Shown here: positions 1 through 30,533 of the stretch, in pieces
Layout of the letters: the number at the start of each line of letters is the position of its first letter
Position numbering within the stretch: position 1 is the stretch's first letter
DNA from: Sphingopyxis sp.
Lineage (GTDB): Bacteria; Pseudomonadota; Alphaproteobacteria; Sphingomonadales; Sphingomonadaceae
Length of the DNA: 64,000 nucleotides
Reading direction: 5' to 3'
NCBI GenBank assembly: GCA_016793775.1
Contig: JAEULK010000011.1
Coordinates: forward strand, 2,686 to 66,685
Translations under genes and position numbers: made by a program
Notes under the pieces: generated by a model
What the model saw: only the letters and a program-made list of their open reading frames with translations
What the model was told of the DNA's origin: nothing
The model's database searches: none

Positions 1-798
1 ATGCGGCAGCGTTTCGGCCTGTCTGGGATATACAACGCGACCTATCGACCGTTCTCGGTCGAACACGCGCCTCTTGGCTTCCTCAAGCGCGCGCGCGGGG
101 GCCTCGGTCCAGATGTGGGGTGCCTTCGCGTCGCCAATGGAGAAAAGCCAAAGGAAGGGAATGCAGGTCACTTCCATCGCGGGAAGCTTGCCAACGTTAG
201 TGACCTCGGCCCTCACATGAGCGCTGATAAAATCGCCATGGGTTTCACTATGCCTCAGTTCGTATCGATCAACATTTACGTTGTTTATCTTCACCCATGG
301 GCGCTGAGCCATGCGCGCAATATCGTTGGACTGAATAACGGCAAGCGCGTTTTTCTCAGCGATTCCCAGCGCATCCCCAGCCCCCTTGGCGGCCTCCTGA
401 GCGATTTCTACCGTTCTTTCAGTCGCCACGGCAGCGCGCTTCGCATACCAGGCGGCGGCAATGGCAGCGCCCATGGTGAAAGCGCCGAGGACGAGGCCGA
501 CGCCACCAAGCACGACTTGCCACCAAGACCAATGGGAACTGTCATAGGCAGCGTCAGCCGCTTTCCACTGGGCGCAAAGATCGGACTTGCGGTCATCGCG
601 GCCACGCTCGCAACCCTCATCTGGGCGCGGGGAAATTGGCTGTTCTGGGGCAGCAGGATCGGTGGGCGCGGCCTTGCTGGTTACGGCCTTGGCAGCTTGG
701 GGATTTTCGCTCTGAGCGCCGCCCTGTTTGCTTGGGCTAGCCCCTACTAAGGCTAGTCCCGCAACACCAATGAGGATGCACCTATAGCCTCTAAGCAT
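1..798 (-). CDS. Membrane-anchored hypothetical protein, 3'-truncated by the window edge (absent from the ORF track)
   Basis: Hand translation from ATG at 798 is open to base 1: MLRGYRCILIGVAGLALVGASP (signal-like)...DLCAQWKAADAA...WSWWQVVLGGVGLVLGAFTMGAAIAAAWYA (TM)...QRPWV...VTNVGKLPAMEV. The track's 1..750 + ORF is its antisense shadow. Confidence 0.75.
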   Translation of the reverse strand, partial: MLRGYRCILIGVAGLALVGASPSKQGGAQSENPQAAKAVTSKAAPTDPAAPEQPISPRPDEGCERGRDDRKSDLCAQWKAADAAYDSSHWSWWQVVLGGVGLVLGAFTMGAAIAAAWYAKRAAVATERTVEIAQEAAKGAGDALGIAEKNALAVIQSNDIARMAQRPWVKINNVNVDRYELRHSETHGDFISAHVRAEVTNVGKLPAMEVTCIPFLWLFSIGDAKAPHIWTEAPARALEEAKRRVFDRERSIGRVVYPRQAETLPH

Positions 799-992
799 TG
801 CAGCATGAACGCCGCTGAGAAGCCGCCCCGGCTGATCTTGTTGTTAAGGTTCCGCTCGTTCTCTGTGACGCCAACCGACGCCAGCTTTTCCGCAAGCTGC
901 GCATAGGTAACCCCCCGCCTTTTCAGCTCGCCTTTTAACAAGTTTTTGGCGCGAGTCTCATACTCAACGGTGGCAGGATCGGCCTTCGCCAT
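753..992 (-). CDS. DUF6471-like small HTH transcriptional regulator
   Basis: 79 aa, LLKGELKRRGVTYAQLAEKL...NLNNKISRGGFSAAF. XRE-like HTH, divergent from the transposase. Confidence 0.8.
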   Translation of the reverse strand: MAKADPATVEYETRAKNLLKGELKRRGVTYAQLAEKLASVGVTENERNLNNKISRGGFSAAFMLQCLEAIGASSLVLRD

Positions 993-1005
993 ATCAGCAT
1001 CCTTT

Positions 1006-1025
1006 TATCATCAAAAATGATGATA
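1006..1025. promoter_or_regulatory. Putative operator in the repressor/transposase divergent promoter
   Basis: Perfect inverted repeat TATCATCA-AAAA-TGATGATA, 13 bp from the HTH start; TTGACT at 1033-1038. Confidence 0.6.
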
Positions 1026-1085
1026 TAGACCCTTGACTTTGGTTATGTCTACCCTCATATCCGGTGCACAACATCACTGGATACG

Positions 1086-2060
1086 ATGACAATGACCACC
1101 AAAGGCCAACATTTCCTCCTCTCTGCCAAGGCTCGCACTCTGAGCCTCAAGGCTGTTTTCACCATGGGCGAAGAGGGCGCCTACAAGACGTTCTGCCAGA
1201 TGCGCTGGCCTGAGACGGACGGCGAGGCTGTGTGCCCGCGCTGCGGCTGTGTCGAAACCTACGACATTGCCACCCGCCGCAAGTTCAAGTGCGTTGCCTG
1301 TCACCACCAGTTCTCGGTCACCAGCGGCACGATCTTCGCCAGCCGCAAGCTGGGCTTCGTCGATCTTCTCGCCGCAATCGTCATCTTCGTGAACGGCGCC
1401 AAGGGCATTGCTGCCCTGCAACTGAGCCGCGATCTAGATTGCCAGTACAAGACCGCCTTCGTGCTTACCCACAAGCTGCGCGAAGCAATGGCGCGTGAGC
1501 AGATGGGTCGCCAGCTCGACGGCATTGTCGAAATCGACGGCGCCTATTTCGGCGGCTACGTGAAGCCGGAAAACCACAAGGACGACCGCAAGGACCGCCG
1601 TCTGGTCGCCAACCGTTCGGGCAAGCGCCAGTGCGTCGTCGTGATGCGCGAGCGCGGCGGTAAGTCGCTTCCCTTCGTCGTCGCCAACGAAGGCGACGCC
1701 GTTCCTTACGTCCGCGATCATGTCGCCAACCTTGCCGTTCTCCACGCCGACGAAGGCACCGGCTGGGATGCCCTCCACGCCGGTTGGATGACTGAGCGCG
1801 TCAATCACTCGGTCCAGTTCTTCGACAAGGGTGCATGCACCAATCAGGCCGAAAGCTATTTCAGCCGCCTTCGCCGGATGGAAGTCGGCACCCACCACCA
1901 TATCGCCGGTCCGTACATCGGCGCCTATGCCCGCGAAGCTTCATGGCGCGAAGATAACCGCCGCGTATCGAACGGCGATCAGGCTGCGATGGTAACGGCC
2001 GCGGCGATGGCCTCGCGCGTCAGCCGGGACTGGAAGGGCTACTGGCAGCGAACCAACTAA
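1086..2060 (+). CDS. IS1595-family DDE transposase with N-terminal Zn ribbon
   Basis: CPRCG...FKCVAC Zn ribbon, SVTSGTIF, EIDGAYFGG, ADE, NQAESYFSRLRR, YAREASWR; reading frame intact. Confidence 0.95.
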   Translation: MTMTTKGQHFLLSAKARTLSLKAVFTMGEEGAYKTFCQMRWPETDGEAVCPRCGCVETYDIATRRKFKCVACHHQFSVTSGTIFASRKLGFVDLLAAIVIFVNGAKGIAALQLSRDLDCQYKTAFVLTHKLREAMAREQMGRQLDGIVEIDGAYFGGYVKPENHKDDRKDRRLVANRSGKRQCVVVMRERGGKSLPFVVANEGDAVPYVRDHVANLAVLHADEGTGWDALHAGWMTERVNHSVQFFDKGACTNQAESYFSRLRRMEVGTHHHIAGPYIGAYAREASWREDNRRVSNGDQAAMVTAAAMASRVSRDWKGYWQRTN

Positions 2061-2455
2061 GAACAAGCGCCGAACACCATGGGAATCCGGGACACATAAA
2101 GCAGACCTTATATGCGCCTGTGCATAACGTGGTGTGCAAAATATGCTCTAAAATGCCCTCAGAGGGCACAGGAAGCGCGTTAACCAAGCGGAGTACTCCT
2201 CTTGGCATTTTTGCGATTGTCGCATCCACAGGGCTTTAAAACCGAAAATTTGGCACTCTCTTGCGACAAGTGCTTGCCTCTAAACCTGAACGGCCCTAAA
2301 CAGCAAAAGGCCCCGGACGGTGGAAACGTCCGAGGCCTCGAGAGCCCCGCGCTGGTGGCGGGGGATTTGCTATAGCGAGGGGGTTTTATACCCCGGGGAT
2401 AGCAAGGTCAACTGCCACCACGCGCATCAGAAGCGTTTTAATGGTGGAGTTCGAC

Positions 2456-2728
2456 ATGGCTACATACAACGTCACGATCTTGTGCGGCGCGTGCAAGTGC
2501 CCAGCGCAAACCGTCGCTAATCCGAAACCTCATGACAAGGTGACCTGTCCCAGGTGCAACCGAAGCGACCGTTTCGATAACGTCCATCGGACGGTGGGCG
2601 AGCATGTCCAATATGAGACTGCCCGCGCCCTCAATGAAAGCATGGCCCGCGCCACTCGCGGCAGCCGCTTCGTTAAGTTCAAGCCAAAGCACCTCCCCCA
2701 GCGGTCGTTCCGCTGGATTGCCGGCTAG
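2456..2728 (+). CDS. Small Zn-ribbon protein (90 aa)
   Basis: CGAC...CPRC pairs; GGTGGAG SD at 2443-2449 supports the ATG at 2456. Confidence 0.65.
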   Translation: MATYNVTILCGACKCPAQTVANPKPHDKVTCPRCNRSDRFDNVHRTVGEHVQYETARALNESMARATRGSRFVKFKPKHLPQRSFRWIAG

Positions 2729-2783
2729 AGCGATATTGAGTTTCTGAGTTTTCATTCGCCCAATCGGAAAGGGGGTGATTTCA

Positions 2784-2918
2784 TTGGCAAACAAGACCCA
2801 CGAACGTGGACGGGACGCTGGTAGCGGCCAGTTCATTCCCGTCCACGTCGCAGAACGTCGTCCTAAGACGACGGTGGTTGAGACCTATAAGGTCGGCAAG
2901 AAGGGACCGAAGAATTAA
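2784..2918 (+). CDS. 44-aa basic hypothetical protein (below the ORF-track cutoff)
   Basis: SD AAAGGGGGTGAT then TTG: MANKTHERGRDAGSGQFIPVHVAERRPKTTVVETYKVGKKGPKN, stop TAA, followed by a hairpin. Confidence 0.7.
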   Translation: MANKTHERGRDAGSGQFIPVHVAERRPKTTVVETYKVGKKGPKN

Positions 2919-2932
2919 TCGGTCCTAATATG

Positions 2933-2962
2933 GGTCGCCGGGGCTGCACGGTCCCGGCGACC
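2933..2962. terminator. Hairpin between convergent cargo units
   Basis: GGTCGCCGGG-N10-CCCGGCGACC, a 10-bp perfect stem; no clear U-tract. Confidence 0.55.
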
Positions 2963-2964
2963 AA

Positions 2965-3129
2965 TCAGGGACGAATGTTTGCGAGGCAATCCGCTGGCGG
3001 TTTTGATGCGGCCTTTTTGCGGTCCACGGACATCGACACGCCTTCGGCCTGACGATACTCGTATCGAGGCATCTTCAGATCAAAGACGACCTTAGGCCGT
3101 GCGTTCGCCCCGCTGCTCTTTTTAGACAT
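2965..3129 (-). CDS. 54-aa basic hypothetical protein coupled to the Ntn hydrolase
   Basis: GGAGG SD then ATG overlapping the last codons of the upstream gene; MSKKSSGANARPKVVFDLKMPRYEY. Confidence 0.5.
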   Translation of the reverse strand: MSKKSSGANARPKVVFDLKMPRYEYRQAEGVSMSVDRKKAASKPPADCLANIRP

Positions 3130-3970
3130 AATCTGCCTCCAAGGGGTTAAGCTTTCGATCAAAGTGATGCTTCCGTTTTATCCACTTAAAACCTTCGTGT
3201 TTCGTTACGACGCAAATGTCGGTTTCACCGCCGACGGTGTCAGCGCCGGGTAGGAAACGCACGTATGCCTTCGTTGTTTCAACCAAGAAATTTGCGAGCG
3301 CAATCGCGTCCTGTACAGGCATCGCGGGCGATATCAACGGGGCTCTGGTCCGACTTTCTATGTGGGTCAGCACCGCGTCTAAGTTTTCTGGCAACAATCC
3401 AATGTCTAAGAGCGCGTTCGGCAAAAATTGGCTGTAGCCGTTTACGATGCGGTTGATCGCTTCGGGTTGGCCGTCATAGAGGATATCAAATTCGTCCTTC
3501 CCCGCGAGGCATTCCGGCTCTGAGCACTCGCCATTCACGATCTGAATGCGCCATATTTCGCCGTGCATTTCCTTCGCGCAATTGCCCGCGATCCAGAACT
3601 GAAATTCGCTTTGCGGCTTGTCTTCCAGCTTCTGAAAATGCTCCTCAAAGAAGAACGTCCGCGCACGGTTGGCCACCTGTTCGATGGTGTAGTTTTTCGG
3701 GTCGATATGCCATTCGTCGTCTTCCGCGGTGAATCTCGCCCGAAGATCCTTGGCCAGCGTGCTAATGGAGATCGGACCGATGTTCCCCATGCCACACGTC
3801 ATCGCGGCAATTGGAAGACCCTTGCGCAGGTTGAACACCTTATTGCCGTGGGAATAGACATTGGCGATCAAGGGGCGGCCATCATCCAGCGAGGATTCAA
3901 TGAGTGATGACGCGCTATCGGCAGCAAACACGATACAGTCGTGTACTTTGACCGCGACGCAAACCGTCAT
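3122..3970 (-). CDS. Proteasome beta/HslV-like Ntn-hydrolase fold protein
   Basis: N-terminus M-TVCVAVKVHDCIVFAADS matches the Thr1...AAD pattern; GNKVF Lys; C-terminal DTVGGETDICVV; SD GAGGGGG. Confidence 0.7.
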   Translation of the reverse strand: MTVCVAVKVHDCIVFAADSASSLIESSLDDGRPLIANVYSHGNKVFNLRKGLPIAAMTCGMGNIGPISISTLAKDLRARFTAEDDEWHIDPKNYTIEQVANRARTFFFEEHFQKLEDKPQSEFQFWIAGNCAKEMHGEIWRIQIVNGECSEPECLAGKDEFDILYDGQPEAINRIVNGYSQFLPNALLDIGLLPENLDAVLTHIESRTRAPLISPAMPVQDAIALANFLVETTKAYVRFLPGADTVGGETDICVVTKHEGFKWIKRKHHFDRKLNPLEADYV

Positions 3971-4032
3971 AAATCCCCCTCACCGCCGATGAATCATAGT
4001 GTGCCGTTCATGTCAATCACTCGCGACGGCAA

Positions 4033-4467
4033 CTAACGTACCAGCTCCCATTCAAGATATTGACCGCCGCGAGTTTCAACGTTGCGAACCAATGATTGAT
4101 CGCGACGATCACGAAGGCACGTTGAGACGCGCTTGGTCATCAACCCGAGCAACTTGGGGGTCGCGGTCAATCCGCGCTGTACGATCATCTGAGCGGCAAT
4201 CTCACGCGACGTAAGCGGCTTGTTCGCAACGCGCATGATCGACAGGACGACGCGGGACATTTCGCCGCGCTTCGACCAGTCGTCGGGCGGGCGGACGAAC
4301 TTGGGGGCAATGGCGGGAATATCCAGATCGGGCGCGACCAGCTTTATCGCGGCGTCGAGCGTTTCCAGATCGCGCGCCATCTGAGCCAGCGCGTCCTGTG
4401 TCCGCGTCATCTCGCCCGCCAGTTCCGCGCGGCGCTTCACCAGCCCTGTCACCATGTAATCTGTCAT
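4033..4467 (-). CDS. Coiled-coil plus winged-helix hypothetical protein at the transposon end
   Basis: N-terminal heptads (LVKRRAELAGEM...LETLDAAIKL); C-terminal wHTH-like RVVLSIMR...PLTSREIA...LEWEL; starts 67 bp inside the terminus. Confidence 0.8.
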   Translation of the reverse strand: MTDYMVTGLVKRRAELAGEMTRTQDALAQMARDLETLDAAIKLVAPDLDIPAIAPKFVRPPDDWSKRGEMSRVVLSIMRVANKPLTSREIAAQMIVQRGLTATPKLLGLMTKRVSTCLRDRRDQSLVRNVETRGGQYLEWELVR

Positions 4468-4469
4468 GG

Positions 4470-4534
4470 TGCTACATTACGAAAAGTTCACTAGACAGGG
4501 CAGATGGTCGTTGGTGCGTTTGCTACATAATGCC
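4470..4534 (-). repeat. Transposon terminal sequence with subterminal repeat
   Basis: TGCTACATAA (4521-4530) and TGCTACATTA (4470-4479) are direct repeats 51 bp apart; terminus GGCATTATGTAGC on the - strand. Confidence 0.75.
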
Positions 4535-5260
4535 GAGCGCCTCGCCGGGATCGAGGTCGGGCAAGATGCCGGGCAGGCACGCCGCCATCAGCGACTTGCC
4601 CGCGCCGGGCGGGCCGACCATCAGCAGATTATGCCCGCCCGCCGCGGCGATTTCGAGCGCGCGCTTGGCGACCTCCTGCCCCTTGACCTGCGCGAGGTCG
4701 GCCATGCGGCGCGGCTCCTCGACCTCACCGGGGCGCGGCGGGGCGAGCAGTGCGCGGCCCTTGAAATGGTTGAGCAGCGAGAGGAGGTCGGGCGCCGCGA
4801 GCACCTCGACATTGCCCGCCCACGCCGCCTCAGGCCCCTGCGCGACGGGGCAGATCAGCCCGCGATCCTGGCTGCCCGCGTGAAGCGCCGCGAGCAGCAC
4901 CCCGGGCGAGGCGGCGACGCGGCCGTCGAGGCCGAGCTCGCCGACGACCACATAGGCGCCGATCGTTTCGGCATCGATGACGCCCATCGCGCCGAGCAGC
5001 GCCAGCGCGATGGGCAGGTCGTAGTGCGATCCCTCCTTGGGCAGGTCGGCGGGCGACAGGTTGACGGTGATGACCTTGGGCGGGAGCGACAGGCCGATCG
5101 CGGCGATCGCGGCGCGGACGCGCTCGCGGCTTTCGCCGACCGCCTTGTCGGGCAGGCCGACGACGACGAAGCGCGGCACGCCGGGGGTGATCTGGCACTG
5201 CACCTCGACCCCGCGCGCTTCGAGGCCGAGATAGGCGACGGTGGACACGATCGCGACCAT
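4535..5260 (-). pseudogene. comM: 5' half (242 codons) of comM/yifB Mg-chelatase-like AAA+ ATPase, interrupted
   Basis: GLPDKAVGESRERVRAA, VNLSPADLPKEGSHYDLPIA, VKGQEVAKRALEIAAAGGHNLLMVGPPGAGKS. After LDPGEAL it reads into the element (GIM-stop). Full ComM is about twice this length. Confidence 0.95.
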
Positions 5261-30397: not shown

Positions 30398-30533
30398 CCC
30401 CCTCCCGCAAGCGGGAGGGGCAGCGAGACTTACGAACTTGTTCGTTAGTCGCAGCGGGGTGGGCAAGCCCGCAGCGTCGGATGCTCGCCGCGCTCGCGCC
30501 CACCCCCAACCCCTCCCGCCTGCGGGAGGGGAG
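30398..30533. repeat. Palindromic repeat, family A (longer variant)
   Basis: CCCCTCCCGCAAGCGGGAGGGG ... CCCCTCCCGCCTGCGGGAGGGG with an internal hairpin. Confidence 0.88.

What the first reader, a model, noticed from the sequence alone, without database searches (positions are those of the whole stretch)
1..5260. Cargo-carrying IS1595 transposon inserted in comM: a possible site-specific DDE element
Seen: comM is intact for 242 codons, then breaks 17 codons after Walker A (GPPGAGKS) at ...GAGGCGCTC|GGCATTATGTAGC. The DDE transposase sits in the middle of the element with passengers on both sides, and no integrase, serine recombinase or Tns gene is visible. Known: comM is a recurrent target of unrelated elements (e.g. 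AbaR/Tn6022-type Tn7-like transposons), and ComM supports recombination of incoming DNA in natural transformation and GTA uptake. Inference: this IS1595 lineage may target comM deliberately, protecting itself from being cured by incoming DNA. I do not know of a described targeting mechanism for IS1595 elements, but one insertion cannot show specificity.
Basis: partly seen in the sequence, partly recalled or inferred. Interest (0 to 1): 0.85.

Follow-up and report, generated by a model that had tools for sequence, protein, structure and literature searches.

The report
Site-specific IS1595 transposon splitting comM
A 4.8-kb cargo-carrying IS1595-family transposon sits at exactly the same nucleotide of the DNA-uptake helicase gene comM in dozens of alphaproteobacterial genomes. 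A small winged-helix protein encoded at its right end appears to choose the target, which would give a simple insertion sequence a swappable homing device.

Summary
The element is C53:2396-7220 (window -289..4535, 4825 bp). It has perfect 25-bp inverted repeats and an 8-bp duplication, AGCGCCTC, inside comM codon 242.

The insertion is not a chance hit. Sixteen of 52 delimited relatives in genomes occupy the identical comM position, as do 42 of about 56 metagenome contigs fetched with the element's 144-aa end protein ("P144"). Both orientations occur. Other relatives sit at a second comM site (Walker B), at two sites in an NfrB-family glycosyltransferase gene, or at the centre of a REP-like palindrome.

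Target class follows the P144 tree, not the transposase tree. The window's element and L003 share 94%-identical DNA over left end, cargo, DUF6471 and transposase. They differ in P144 (36% identity) and in target. P144 is under purifying selection and is predicted to be a coiled-coil plus winged-helix DNA binder. It has no Pfam or NCBIfam family.

Best reading: a DDE transposon guided by an exchangeable target-selector protein, working like Tn7 but not a member of that family. Binding and recruitment are inferred, not shown. The "anti-curing" motive is untested. comM here also carries a second, serine-recombinase island.

The parts
1..4535 (+). In-window part of the transposon. The whole element is C53:2396-7220 (window -289..4535, 4825 bp). 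The left IR and left copy of the duplication lie 265-297 bp left of the window.
   Evidence: Perfect 25-bp IR pair and 8-bp direct repeat. Single copy in the genome.
1..798 (-). Left-end gene 'P300': a 300-aa membrane-anchored protein (full gene L001 2581-3483). It lies downstream of DUF6471 on the same strand. Function unknown.
   Evidence: An HMM of this family hits 32 of 52 relatives, always at the left end. No Pfam, NCBIfam or PADLOC family. The AF2 model is poor, pLDDT 63.
753..992 (-). DUF6471 protein, 79 aa. It is a core gene transcribed divergently from the transposase. I infer it is a small HTH-type regulator of transposase expression.
   Evidence: Pfam PF20075, E 6e-32. Present next to the transposase in all complete relatives except the truncated L047 and in L177. 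dN/dS 0.19. The regulatory role is inference only.
1086..2060 (+). IS1595-family DDE transposase, 324 aa, with an N-terminal zinc ribbon.
   Evidence: PF12762 E 1.5e-35 and PF12760 E 1e-13. NF033547 scores 143 bits against a cut-off of 75. C50/C53/C69/C72, D151, D222 and E256 are invariant in 37 relatives. dN/dS 0.18.
2441..2728 (+). Passenger ORF, 95 aa, CxxC zinc-ribbon-like. It belongs to the variable region.
   Evidence: Sub-threshold hits only: NF047912 at 21.6 bits against a cut-off of 37, and DUF5817. Not shared with other comM-site elements.
3122..3970 (-). Passenger ORF, 282 aa, function unknown. It belongs to the variable region.
   Evidence: No Pfam, NCBIfam, PADLOC or PDB match. 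Not shared with L003, L005, L010 or L035.
4033..4467 (-). 'P144': a 144-aa core protein abutting the right end. It has an N-terminal long helix and a C-terminal winged helix. It is the proposed target selector.
   Evidence: Present in 50 of 52 relatives. Its clades match the target classes. Apart from the transposase gene, it is the only segment shared by comM-site elements. AF2 pLDDT 84. The fold resembles Fur/PerR/MarR/ArsR DNA-binding domains. dN/dS about 0.1-0.3.
4511..4535 (-). Right terminal inverted repeat, 25 bp.
   Evidence: 100% complementary to L001 2396-2420. The tip CGGCATTATGTAGC is conserved in nearly all relatives.
4536..4543 (.). Right copy of the 8-bp target duplication, AGCGCCTC. 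On the comM strand it reads GAGGCGCT (codons E-A-L).
   Evidence: Identical to L001 2388-2395.
4536..5260 (-). comM 5' fragment, codons 1-242 (ChlI domain and Walker A). It is cut between Walker A and Walker B.
   Evidence: PF01078 positions 1-59 here, 52-193 at C53:1973-2398.
30425..30452 (+). Unoccupied copy of the REP-like palindrome that sister elements (class C) use as their target. It is not part of this element and is listed as a specificity control.
   Evidence: (2 mismatches to the class C site consensus, 0 expected by chance). Further copies in this genome.

Best explanation
This is a transporter insertion sequence of the IS1595 family: a DDE transposase, 25-bp inverted repeats and an 8-bp duplication. 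It transposes site-specifically.

Its core is three genes:
- DUF6471, a probable small regulator, transcribed divergently from the transposase gene.
- The transposase.
- P144, a 144-aa protein encoded against the right end.

I propose that P144 is a sequence-specific DNA-binding target selector. Its winged-helix domain would recognise a short conserved sequence. Here that sequence is in comM around codons E-A-L-E-V-S-M, between Walker A and Walker B. Its conserved N-terminal helix would dimerise and/or recruit the transposase. The symmetric transpososome would then insert at one fixed 8-bp position in either orientation.

Exchanging the P144 gene retargets the element to comM Walker B, to an NfrB-family glycosyltransferase gene, or to a REP-like repeat.

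Shown here:
- The anatomy of the element.
- Recurrent insertion at identical positions.
- Co-variation of P144, and of no other part, with the target.
- Purifying selection on P144.
- A DNA-binding-type predicted fold.

Inferred, not shown:
- That P144 binds the target.
- That P144 contacts the transposase.

The consequence here is a comM gene split within its AAA+ core, so ComM-dependent recombination of incoming DNA should be lost.
For: Site specificity:
- There are 52 delimited relatives, and 51 have perfect 8-bp duplications.
- Sixteen sit at the same comM nucleotide. Six (plus 4 partial loci) sit at a second comM site, LFLDELPE|FQR.
- Seven and two sit at two sites about 20 codons apart in one NfrB-family GT2 gene (NF011307 above cut-off).
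- Six sit at the centre of a multi-copy REP-like palindrome, and at least four of these loci have unrelated flanks, so they are unambiguously independent events.

Independent test: a metagenome scan with P144 gave about 56 contigs with a readable flank. Forty-two abut comM site 1, down to 46% P144 identity.

Determinant mapping:
- Target labels need 10 changes on the P144 tree (minimum 6; shuffled 30.6). The clades have 97-100% support.
- On the transposase tree they need 24 changes (shuffled 30.1), and that tree follows host genus.
- The window's element and L003 share nt 1-2366 at 93-94% identity but have different P144 (36%) and different targets. The window's element shares only the transposase gene plus the last ~490 nt with L005, L010 and L035.
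- The 43-bp spacer between the right IR and the P144 start is not class-specific.
- No transposase column separates comM-site from other-site elements in the Sphingopyxis clade.
- There is no excess complementarity between the right module and its own target (8.24 vs 8.20 nt).

Within-genome controls:
- This genome holds unoccupied class C, class F and comM-site-2 sequences.
- Same-genus G054 carries a 95%-identical transposase but has an intact comM. I infer, but did not check, that its element is the REP-site (class C) element L008.

Protein evidence:
- P144 dN/dS is 0.09-0.28.
- The AF2 model has pLDDT 84: helix 2-44, a linker, and a winged helix at 69-142.
- The best PDB folds are Fur, PerR, MarR, ArsR and PadR DNA-binding domains.
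- Class-specific divergence is strongest in the HTH helices (within/between identity ratio 2.2-2.6, against 1.7 for the N-helix).

Lifestyle: one copy per genome in all 37 of the 401 species genomes that carry it, as expected of a site-specific element.
Against: - No binding or transposition data exist. The link between P144 and target is correlational, and related sequences are not independent.
- The fold matches are weak (Foldseek E about 1e-2, TM about 0.4). A winged helix would equally suit a repressor.
- P144 lies next to the flank. Some co-inheritance of the end module with the target locus through homologous recombination cannot be fully excluded.
- Orientation is random with respect to the P144 tree (16 changes, shuffled 16.2). 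This is unlike Tn7 and needs the ad hoc assumption of a symmetric transpososome. Orientation flips could also arise by in-situ inversion between the IRs rather than by re-insertion.
- About 14% of comM-type elements sit elsewhere, often in T-rich octamers. L076, L049 and L017 carry a P144 of one clade at a different site.
- Two relatives (L058, L061) lack a detectable P144.
Confidence: 0.68

Rival explanations
1. The transposase itself, or its ends, carries the site specificity. P144 is only a linked regulator (for example a repressor of transposition or of cargo) that happens to co-segregate with the target.
For: - IS1595 transposases have an N-terminal zinc ribbon that could read DNA.
- A winged-helix protein at an element end is a classic repressor layout.
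- Off-target insertions share T-rich octamers, which suggests an intrinsic transposase preference.
Against: - Transposases 95-98% identical occur at three different target classes. No residue column distinguishes comM-site from other-site elements.
- The IRs are identical across classes, and the subterminal spacer is not class-specific.
- Apart from the transposase gene, the only shared segment among comM-site elements is the P144 gene.
Confidence: 0.12
2. There is no ongoing targeting. One or a few ancient insertions in comM were inherited vertically or spread with comM flanks by homologous recombination (transformation or gene transfer agents). In-situ inversions would explain the two orientations.
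For: - Transposase and P144 trees both broadly follow host taxonomy within a class.
- Transposase dS between hosts (median 1.1) is similar to comM dS (0.87).
- The element is about the size a gene transfer agent could carry (GTA capacity from PMC12378983).
- Inversion between IRs is known for IS elements (title of PMC3004938, seen).
Against: - The comM halves have no stop codons in 13 of 13 genomes, and dN/dS is about 0.2. This does not fit old pseudogenes.
- The duplications are perfect and match each host's own comM codons.
- The element occurs in only about 9% of species, with intact comM in congeners.
- The same site is hit in other alphaproteobacterial orders (L044 is a Dongiaceae genome; metagenome contigs down to 46% P144 identity).
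- Class C elements occupy the same repeat sequence at different loci, which only transposition explains.
Confidence: 0.06
3. Targeting is guided by an RNA or DNA sequence encoded in the right-end module (as with IS110 bridge RNAs or ωRNA-type guides), not by the P144 protein.
For: The determinant maps to a ~490-nt stretch at one end. Guide RNAs of other IS families are encoded at element ends (from my own knowledge).
Against: - The stretch is almost entirely the P144 ORF, which evolves with dN/dS 0.1-0.3 and saturated dS.
- The longest exact matches between the module and its own target are no longer than matches to the targets of other classes (8.24 vs 8.20 nt).
- The non-coding 43-bp spacer is shared between classes.
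Confidence: 0.03
4. It is a chance insertion of an ordinary, non-specific IS into comM. It might have been tolerated because comM was already dead from the serine-recombinase island.
For: comM in this genome does carry a second insertion. One insertion alone cannot show specificity.
Against: There are 58 occurrences at the identical nucleotide in different genomes and contigs. Most occupied comM genes have no second insertion.
Confidence: 0.01

Closest known systems
Transporter IS of the IS1595 family (ISNha5 / ISNwi1+ subgroups of ISfinder; MTnSag1, tISCpe8)
   Same: - IS1595-type DDE transposase with a zinc ribbon, 25-bp IRs, an 8-bp duplication and extra genes inside the IRs. PMC5704250 describes exactly these features for MTnSag1 and tISCpe8.
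- PMC11891212, citing Siguier 2009, says ISNha5 carries 'transcription regulators' as passengers.
- The IR tip CGGCATT and the 3.1-6.8 kb size range fit my memory of the ISNha5 subgroup (CGGnnTT, 3.4-7.9 kb). I could not check this against ISfinder.
   Different: - No target specificity or selector protein is described for this family in the literature I could search.
- Here the 'regulator passengers' (DUF6471, P144) are universal core genes, and one of them tracks the target.
Tn7 and Tn7-like elements (TnsD/TniQ-directed insertion at attTn7), including AbaR/Tn6022 in Acinetobacter comM
   Same: - A DDE transposon that uses a dedicated, exchangeable DNA-binding protein to home to one conserved chromosomal sequence.
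- One copy per genome.
- An occasional off-target pathway.
- AbaR islands also disrupt comM and thereby alter transformation (PMC11441513, PMC12378983).
   Different: - No TnsA, TnsB, TnsC or TniQ homologues.
- No AAA+ adaptor.
- The selector is a 144-aa coiled-coil plus winged helix.
- Insertion is inside the recognised gene and inactivates it.
- Both orientations are used about equally.
REP/BIME-targeting insertion sequences (e.g. IS1397, ISKpn1, some IS110 members). This comparison is from my own knowledge.
   Same: Class C sister elements insert at the centre of a multi-copy palindromic intergenic repeat.
   Different: Different transposase families. In those elements specificity is attributed to the transposase or a guide RNA, not to a separate selector protein.
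Homing endonuclease genes, inteins and group I introns (functional analogy)
   Same: Targets are the most conserved coding motifs of widespread genes: the P-loop/Walker B region of ComM, and the GPTTKADCLN and D-x-D region of a GT2 enzyme. This guarantees a site in any new host.
   Different: The mechanism is transposition with a target duplication. The host gene is destroyed, not restored by splicing.
Large-serine-recombinase islands in comM
   Same: They use the same host gene. This genome has one at codon 380. Relatives of its recombinase abut comM broken at about codon 214 in 6 of 7 genomes.
   Different: Unrelated recombination chemistry, different positions, much larger islands.

Membership tests
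IS1595 family of insertion sequences | Transposase with a DDE_Tnp_IS1595 (ISXO2-like) catalytic domain | tested here: met
   PF12762 E 1.5e-35 (122.9 bits, cut-off 27). NF033547 scores 143.1 bits against a cut-off of 75. D151, D222 and E256 are invariant in 37 relatives.
IS1595 family of insertion sequences | N-terminal zinc-ribbon domain | tested here: met
   PF12760 E 1e-13. Four invariant cysteines, C50/C53/C69/C72.
IS1595 family of insertion sequences | Terminal inverted repeats and an 8-bp target duplication | tested here: met
   Perfect 25-bp IRs. A perfect 8-bp duplication here and in 51 of 52 relatives.
Transporter IS (tIS) | Additional genes unrelated to the transposase inside the IRs | tested here: met
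   Five further ORFs lie between the IRs. Relatives carry Panacea/SocA, Fic and KilA-N genes in the variable region.
ISNha5 / ISNwi1 subgroup (ISfinder) | Subgroup-specific IR tip and catalytic signature | not tested
   ISfinder was not available. The tip CGGCATT fits the ISNha5 consensus as I remember it. No reference ISNha5 sequence was compared.
Tn7-like transposons (including AbaR/Tn6022) | TnsA/TnsB heteromeric transposase, TnsC AAA+ regulator and a TnsD/TniQ selector | tested here: not met
   No such domains in any ORF of the element with Pfam or NCBIfam.
Tn7-like transposons (including AbaR/Tn6022) | Single orientation at a fixed distance from the selector's binding site | tested here: not met
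   Orientation at comM site 1 is 19:23 in the metagenome contigs and 21:32 in the 53-element subset used for the tree. It is random on the P144 tree.
Integrase- or serine-recombinase-driven genomic islands | Tyrosine or serine recombinase encoded within the element and att-site recombination without a duplication | tested here: not met
   None lies between the IRs. The nearby serine recombinase (L001 75-1745) belongs to a separate insertion at comM codon 380.
RNA-guided IS (IS110 bridge-RNA type) | Element-encoded sequence complementary to the target | tested here: not met
   There is no excess match between the right module and its own target compared with other classes' targets.
ComM/YifB (identity of the host target gene) | ChlI N-domain, Mg_chelatase AAA+ domain and Mg_chelatase_C | tested here: met
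   PF13541 and PF01078 on the 5' fragment. PF01078 positions 52-193 on the middle fragment. PF13335 on C66. Intact 502-aa orthologues at 91-95% identity in congeners.

The most novel reading that the evidence does not exclude
P144 would represent a very large unannotated family (5,870 clusters at 50% identity) of exchangeable homing proteins that program IS1595-type transposons to chosen conserved sequences.

Selection would repeatedly steer them to genes whose loss closes the cell to incoming DNA or phage. The examples are comM (needed for recombination of transforming and GTA DNA) and an NfrB-family exopolysaccharide synthase. On this reading the element entrenches itself by disabling the host's means of curing it.

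If the selector really acts alone with a one-protein transposase, it would be the simplest protein-programmable DNA-insertion system known.
Probability: 0.3. Interest if true: 0.9.

Novelty: new variant of a known kind. Interest (0 to 1): 0.82.

Why it matters
Site-specific DDE transposition has been tied to elaborate machines (Tn7: five proteins) or to guide RNAs. This element suggests that a plain one-transposase IS can become site-specific by adding a 144-aa DNA-binding protein, and that nature swaps this module freely.

- **A directly testable system.** It has only two or three small genes and defined 25-bp ends. The natural "swap experiments" are already visible in genomes.
- **comM as an MGE hotspot beyond Gammaproteobacteria.** comM is known as a hotspot for mobile elements in Gammaproteobacteria. 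This work extends that to Alphaproteobacteria, where ComM also serves gene-transfer-agent reception. The "MGEs sabotage chromosomal curing" hypothesis (PMC4774983) thus becomes testable in a new clade.
- **Annotation.** About 9% of species genomes sampled in this family carry such an element, so comM and similar genes will often be miscalled as pseudogenes with "hypothetical" neighbours.

Tried and rejected
- **Complex prediction.** Complex prediction of transposase plus P144 with my own alignments scored 0.01. This is no verdict and says nothing for or against binding.
- **P300 structure.** AF2 of the left-end 300-aa protein gave pLDDT 63, too poor for a fold search. Its function is left unknown.
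- **Own cargo, P144 and DUF6471.** PADLOC found nothing. A PDB sequence search with DUF6471, the 282-aa ORF and the P144 profile gave only chance or coiled-coil hits.
- **Plasmids.** Only distant transposase relatives (at most 60% identity) were found, so no plasmid vehicle was identified.
- **Order-wide search with a class D P144.** It gave only 5 hits. One new genome confirmed the GT2 site and one the comM Walker B site. This is too few for a second independent test.
- **Guide-RNA idea.** No complementarity was found.
- **Transposase-borne specificity.** No discriminating residue was found.
- **Orientation as proof of independent insertions.** I weakened this argument myself, because in-situ inversion between the IRs could flip an element.
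- **L069 and L042 glycosyltransferases.** I first thought they were the same gene as classes D and E. They are only 25% identical, so they are different GT2 genes.
- **L100 flank.** It is a Nextera adapter, an assembly artefact, and was excluded.
- **Literature.** Searches for IS1595 with comM, DUF6471, ISNwi1, ISNha5 and site-specific IS1595 found no description of targeting.
- **Short contigs.** Two of three look-ups of distant P144 representatives landed on contigs too short to read.

Full report
**1. What is in the sequence**

The window is C53:2686-66685 of a 3.9-Mb, 106-contig assembly, so 2.7 kb to its left could be read (L001 = C53:1-9000; window = L001 - 2685).

comM lies on the minus strand. 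From its start at window 5260 it is intact for 242 codons (ChlI domain, Walker A GPPGAGKS...PGEAL) and then runs into foreign DNA. It resumes at L001 2395 with EVSMIAS....

Between the two parts lies a 4825-bp element (L001 2396-7220; window -289..4535). It is bounded by a perfect 25-bp inverted repeat and flanked by a perfect 8-bp direct repeat, AGCGCCTC. The element is single-copy in this genome.

**2. Gene content**

From left to right:
- A 300-aa membrane-anchored protein (minus strand).
- DUF6471, 79 aa (minus strand).
- An IS1595-family transposase with a zinc ribbon (plus strand; PF12762/PF12760; NF033547 above its cut-off).
- A 95-aa CxxC ORF.
- A 282-aa ORF.
- A 144-aa ORF (minus strand) that ends 68 bp from the right tip. 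I call it P144.

No integrase, serine recombinase or Tns protein lies inside the IRs.

**3. Relatives and their insertion sites**

The transposase has thousands of homologues. The top 120 are 81-100% identical and come from Sphingomonadales.

A scan of one genome per species returned 79 loci. In 52 of them both ends could be placed. All have the same IR tip with a terminal C...G, and 51 have a perfect 8-bp duplication. Sizes range from 1.9 to 6.8 kb, so all carry extra genes.

The insertion sites fall into classes, each at one nucleotide position:
- **comM site 1** (...P-x-E|A-L-E-V-S): 16 genomes including this one.
- **comM site 2** (LFLDELPE|FQR, at Walker B): 6 complete and 4 partial loci.
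- **Two sites about 20 codons apart in one NfrB-family GT2 gene** (NF011307 above cut-off): 7 and 2 genomes.
- **One site near the start of an unknown gene:** 3 genomes.
- **The centre of a ~60-bp REP-like palindrome:** 6 Sphingopyxis loci. At least four have unrelated flanks and so lie at different places in the genome.
- **Single cases:** an HsdR gene, a YadA-like adhesin gene and two other GT2 genes.

**4. Which part of the element goes with the target**

All relatives share three genes in the same layout: DUF6471, the transposase and P144. The regions left of DUF6471 and between the transposase and P144 vary. Variable genes include Panacea/SocA-like, Fic/DOC and KilA-N genes. The 300-aa left-end protein occurs in 32 of 52.

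The trees give the key result:
- On a P144 tree the target classes are clades with 97-100% support. The labels need 10 changes, against a minimum of 6 and a shuffled mean of 30.6.
- The transposase tree follows host genus, and the target labels are scattered on it: 24 changes against a shuffled mean of 30.1.

Natural "swaps" make the point directly:
- The window's element and L003 are 93-94% identical in DNA from the left tip through the transposase gene. Their P144 proteins are only 36% identical. One sits in comM and the other in the palindrome.
- The window's element shares only the transposase gene and the last ~490 nt with the comM-site elements L005, L010 and L035.

Other candidate determinants are excluded:
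- The 43-bp spacer between the right IR and the P144 start is not class-specific.
- No transposase residue separates comM-site from other-site elements within the Sphingopyxis clade.
- The right module is not more complementary to its own target than to foreign ones.

**5. An independent test**

I scanned metagenome contigs with the window's P144 alone. Of about 56 contigs in which the tip and flank are readable, 42 abut comM at exactly site 1. This holds down to 46% P144 identity. The P144 end faces the 5' half of comM in 19 contigs and the 3' half in 23.

The other contigs are scattered singletons inside the comM-type clade. They look like off-target events, often in T-rich octamers, rather than separate specificities.

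Within this genome, perfect or near-perfect sites for class C (window 30425-30452 and four others), class F and comM site 2 are all unoccupied. A same-genus genome, G054, has a 95%-identical transposase but an intact comM. I infer, without checking, that its element is the REP-site element L008.

**6. Are these repeated insertions or one old one?**

- The comM halves of occupied genomes contain no stop codons and differ with dN/dS of about 0.2.
- The duplications are perfect and use each host's own codons.
- Only 37 of 401 species genomes in the family carry the transposase, always as one copy.
- Congeners have an intact comM.
- Orientation is random on the P144 tree: 16 changes against a shuffled mean of 16.2. 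In-situ inversion between the IRs could contribute to this, so I do not lean on it.
- The class C insertions at different loci can only be transposition.

I conclude that site-specific transposition is recurrent and ongoing.

**7. What P144 looks like**

- It has no Pfam, NCBIfam, PADLOC or PDB-sequence relative.
- With a 42-sequence alignment, AF2 gives pLDDT 84. The model has one long helix (2-44), a flexible linker and a winged helix-turn-helix (69-142).
- The best structural matches are the DNA-binding domains of Fur, PerR, MarR, ArsR and PadR regulators. The scores are weak (E about 1e-2).
- AFDB neighbours are uncharacterised.
- The gene is under purifying selection, with dN/dS 0.09-0.28.
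- Divergence between classes is strongest in the two HTH helices.
- A profile search finds 5,870 clusters at 50% identity. One sampled member shows the same P144 – cargo – transposase – DUF6471 layout.

**8. Mechanism proposed**

Shown: a DDE transposon with fixed ends that repeatedly lands on one octamer, and whose target class tracks one small predicted DNA-binding protein.

Inferred: P144 binds the target, probably as a dimer through its N-helix, and brings in or activates the transposase. Because the two ends are identical, the orientation is free. DUF6471 is a small HTH-like protein transcribed divergently from the transposase and probably regulates it.

Untested: binding, contact with the transposase, and any role for the 300-aa membrane protein.

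**9. Comparison with known systems**

The element passes every test I could apply for the IS1595 family and for "transporter IS". PMC5704250 describes 25-bp IRs and 8-bp repeats for MTnSag1 and tISCpe8. PMC11891212 notes that ISNha5 carries "transcription regulators" as passengers. The IR tip and size fit my memory of the ISNha5 subgroup, but this is unverified.

It works like Tn7 (TnsD/TniQ) but is not a member of that family. It has no TnsABC or TniQ, it inserts inside the gene, and it uses both orientations.

I found no report of target selection in IS1595 elements, or of such elements in comM. Reviews list comM disruption by "various MGEs" only in Gammaproteobacteria (PMC12378983).

**10. 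Why comM?**

Site 1 and site 2 split the AAA+ core, so ComM should be inactive. ComM promotes branch migration of incoming DNA and is needed for GTA-mediated recombination (PMC12378983, quoting Nero 2018 and Brimacombe 2015).

Three P144 clades converge on comM. So do unrelated serine-recombinase islands:
- This genome has one at codon 380.
- Relatives of its recombinase (34% identity) abut comM broken near codon 214 in 6 of 7 genomes.
- L009 has both an insertion near codon 214 and the IS1595-type element.

However, sister selectors aim at a REP repeat and other genes. The simpler rule, "pick a conserved sequence present in every host", is therefore not excluded. I rate the adaptive reading at about 0.3.

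**11. Verdict**

comM targeting is strongly supported. A candidate selector protein is identified by comparative evidence only. The anti-curing motive remains open.

Noticed in passing
L001 (C53) 75-1975, left of the window; C66:1-2746: comM is broken a second time at codon 380 (LLDRI|DLHVEV) by an island that carries a 556-aa large serine recombinase next to the junction. The island spans a contig break, and the comM tail lies on C66 after AT-rich DNA.
   Followed up: partly
L165-L170 (genome-search loci); L009 629-1276 and 8725-8892: Relatives of that serine recombinase (about 34% identity) lie beside comM broken at about codon 213-216 in 6 of 7 genomes of the family. This is a third recurrent comM insertion point, used by an unrelated recombinase. 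L009 carries such a break as well as the IS1595-type element.
   Followed up: partly
window 30425-30452 (also C35:1293, C101:17776 and 22657, C18:6672): A REP-like palindromic repeat family (core CTTACGAACTTGTTCGTTAG between GC-rich arms) is present in several copies. It is the exact target of the closest sister elements but is unoccupied here.
   Followed up: yes
L074 700-760: The left flank of this comM-site-2 element is itself an IR-like tip of a second related element. This suggests tandem or nested copies, and the 'element' measures 6.8 kb.
   Followed up: no
L086, L089, L097, L106, L116, L124, L136, L146, L150 (flanks): Off-target insertions of comM-type elements have T/A-run-rich duplications (GACATTTT, CGCTTTTG, GGCCTTTT, CAAATTTT, CATTTTAC). 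This may reflect a default preference of the transposase.
   Followed up: no
G386 (same genus): No full-length Mg_chelatase/ComM match was found in this complete-looking congener, only weak AAA+ hits. comM may be lost or heavily disrupted there.
   Followed up: no
L025 8393-8986, L018 11025-11495, L081 11335-11940, L003 10079-10915: The variable cargo of relatives includes Panacea/SocA-type antitoxin domains, a Fic/DOC protein matching the SoFic defence model, and a KilA-N protein. This resembles the toxin-antitoxin and defence content typical of small mobile elements.
   Followed up: partly
L100 1-55: The contig flank next to the element tip is a Nextera adapter sequence, an assembly artefact in a public metagenome contig.
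   Followed up: yes
L069 7315-8658, L042 6865-8802, L049 6885-13308, L028 8061-12972: Single elements with other P144 types interrupt two further processive GT2 (PgaC/EpsU-like) genes, a type I restriction HsdR gene and a YadA-like adhesin gene. Several of these are surface-polysaccharide or defence functions.
   Followed up: partly
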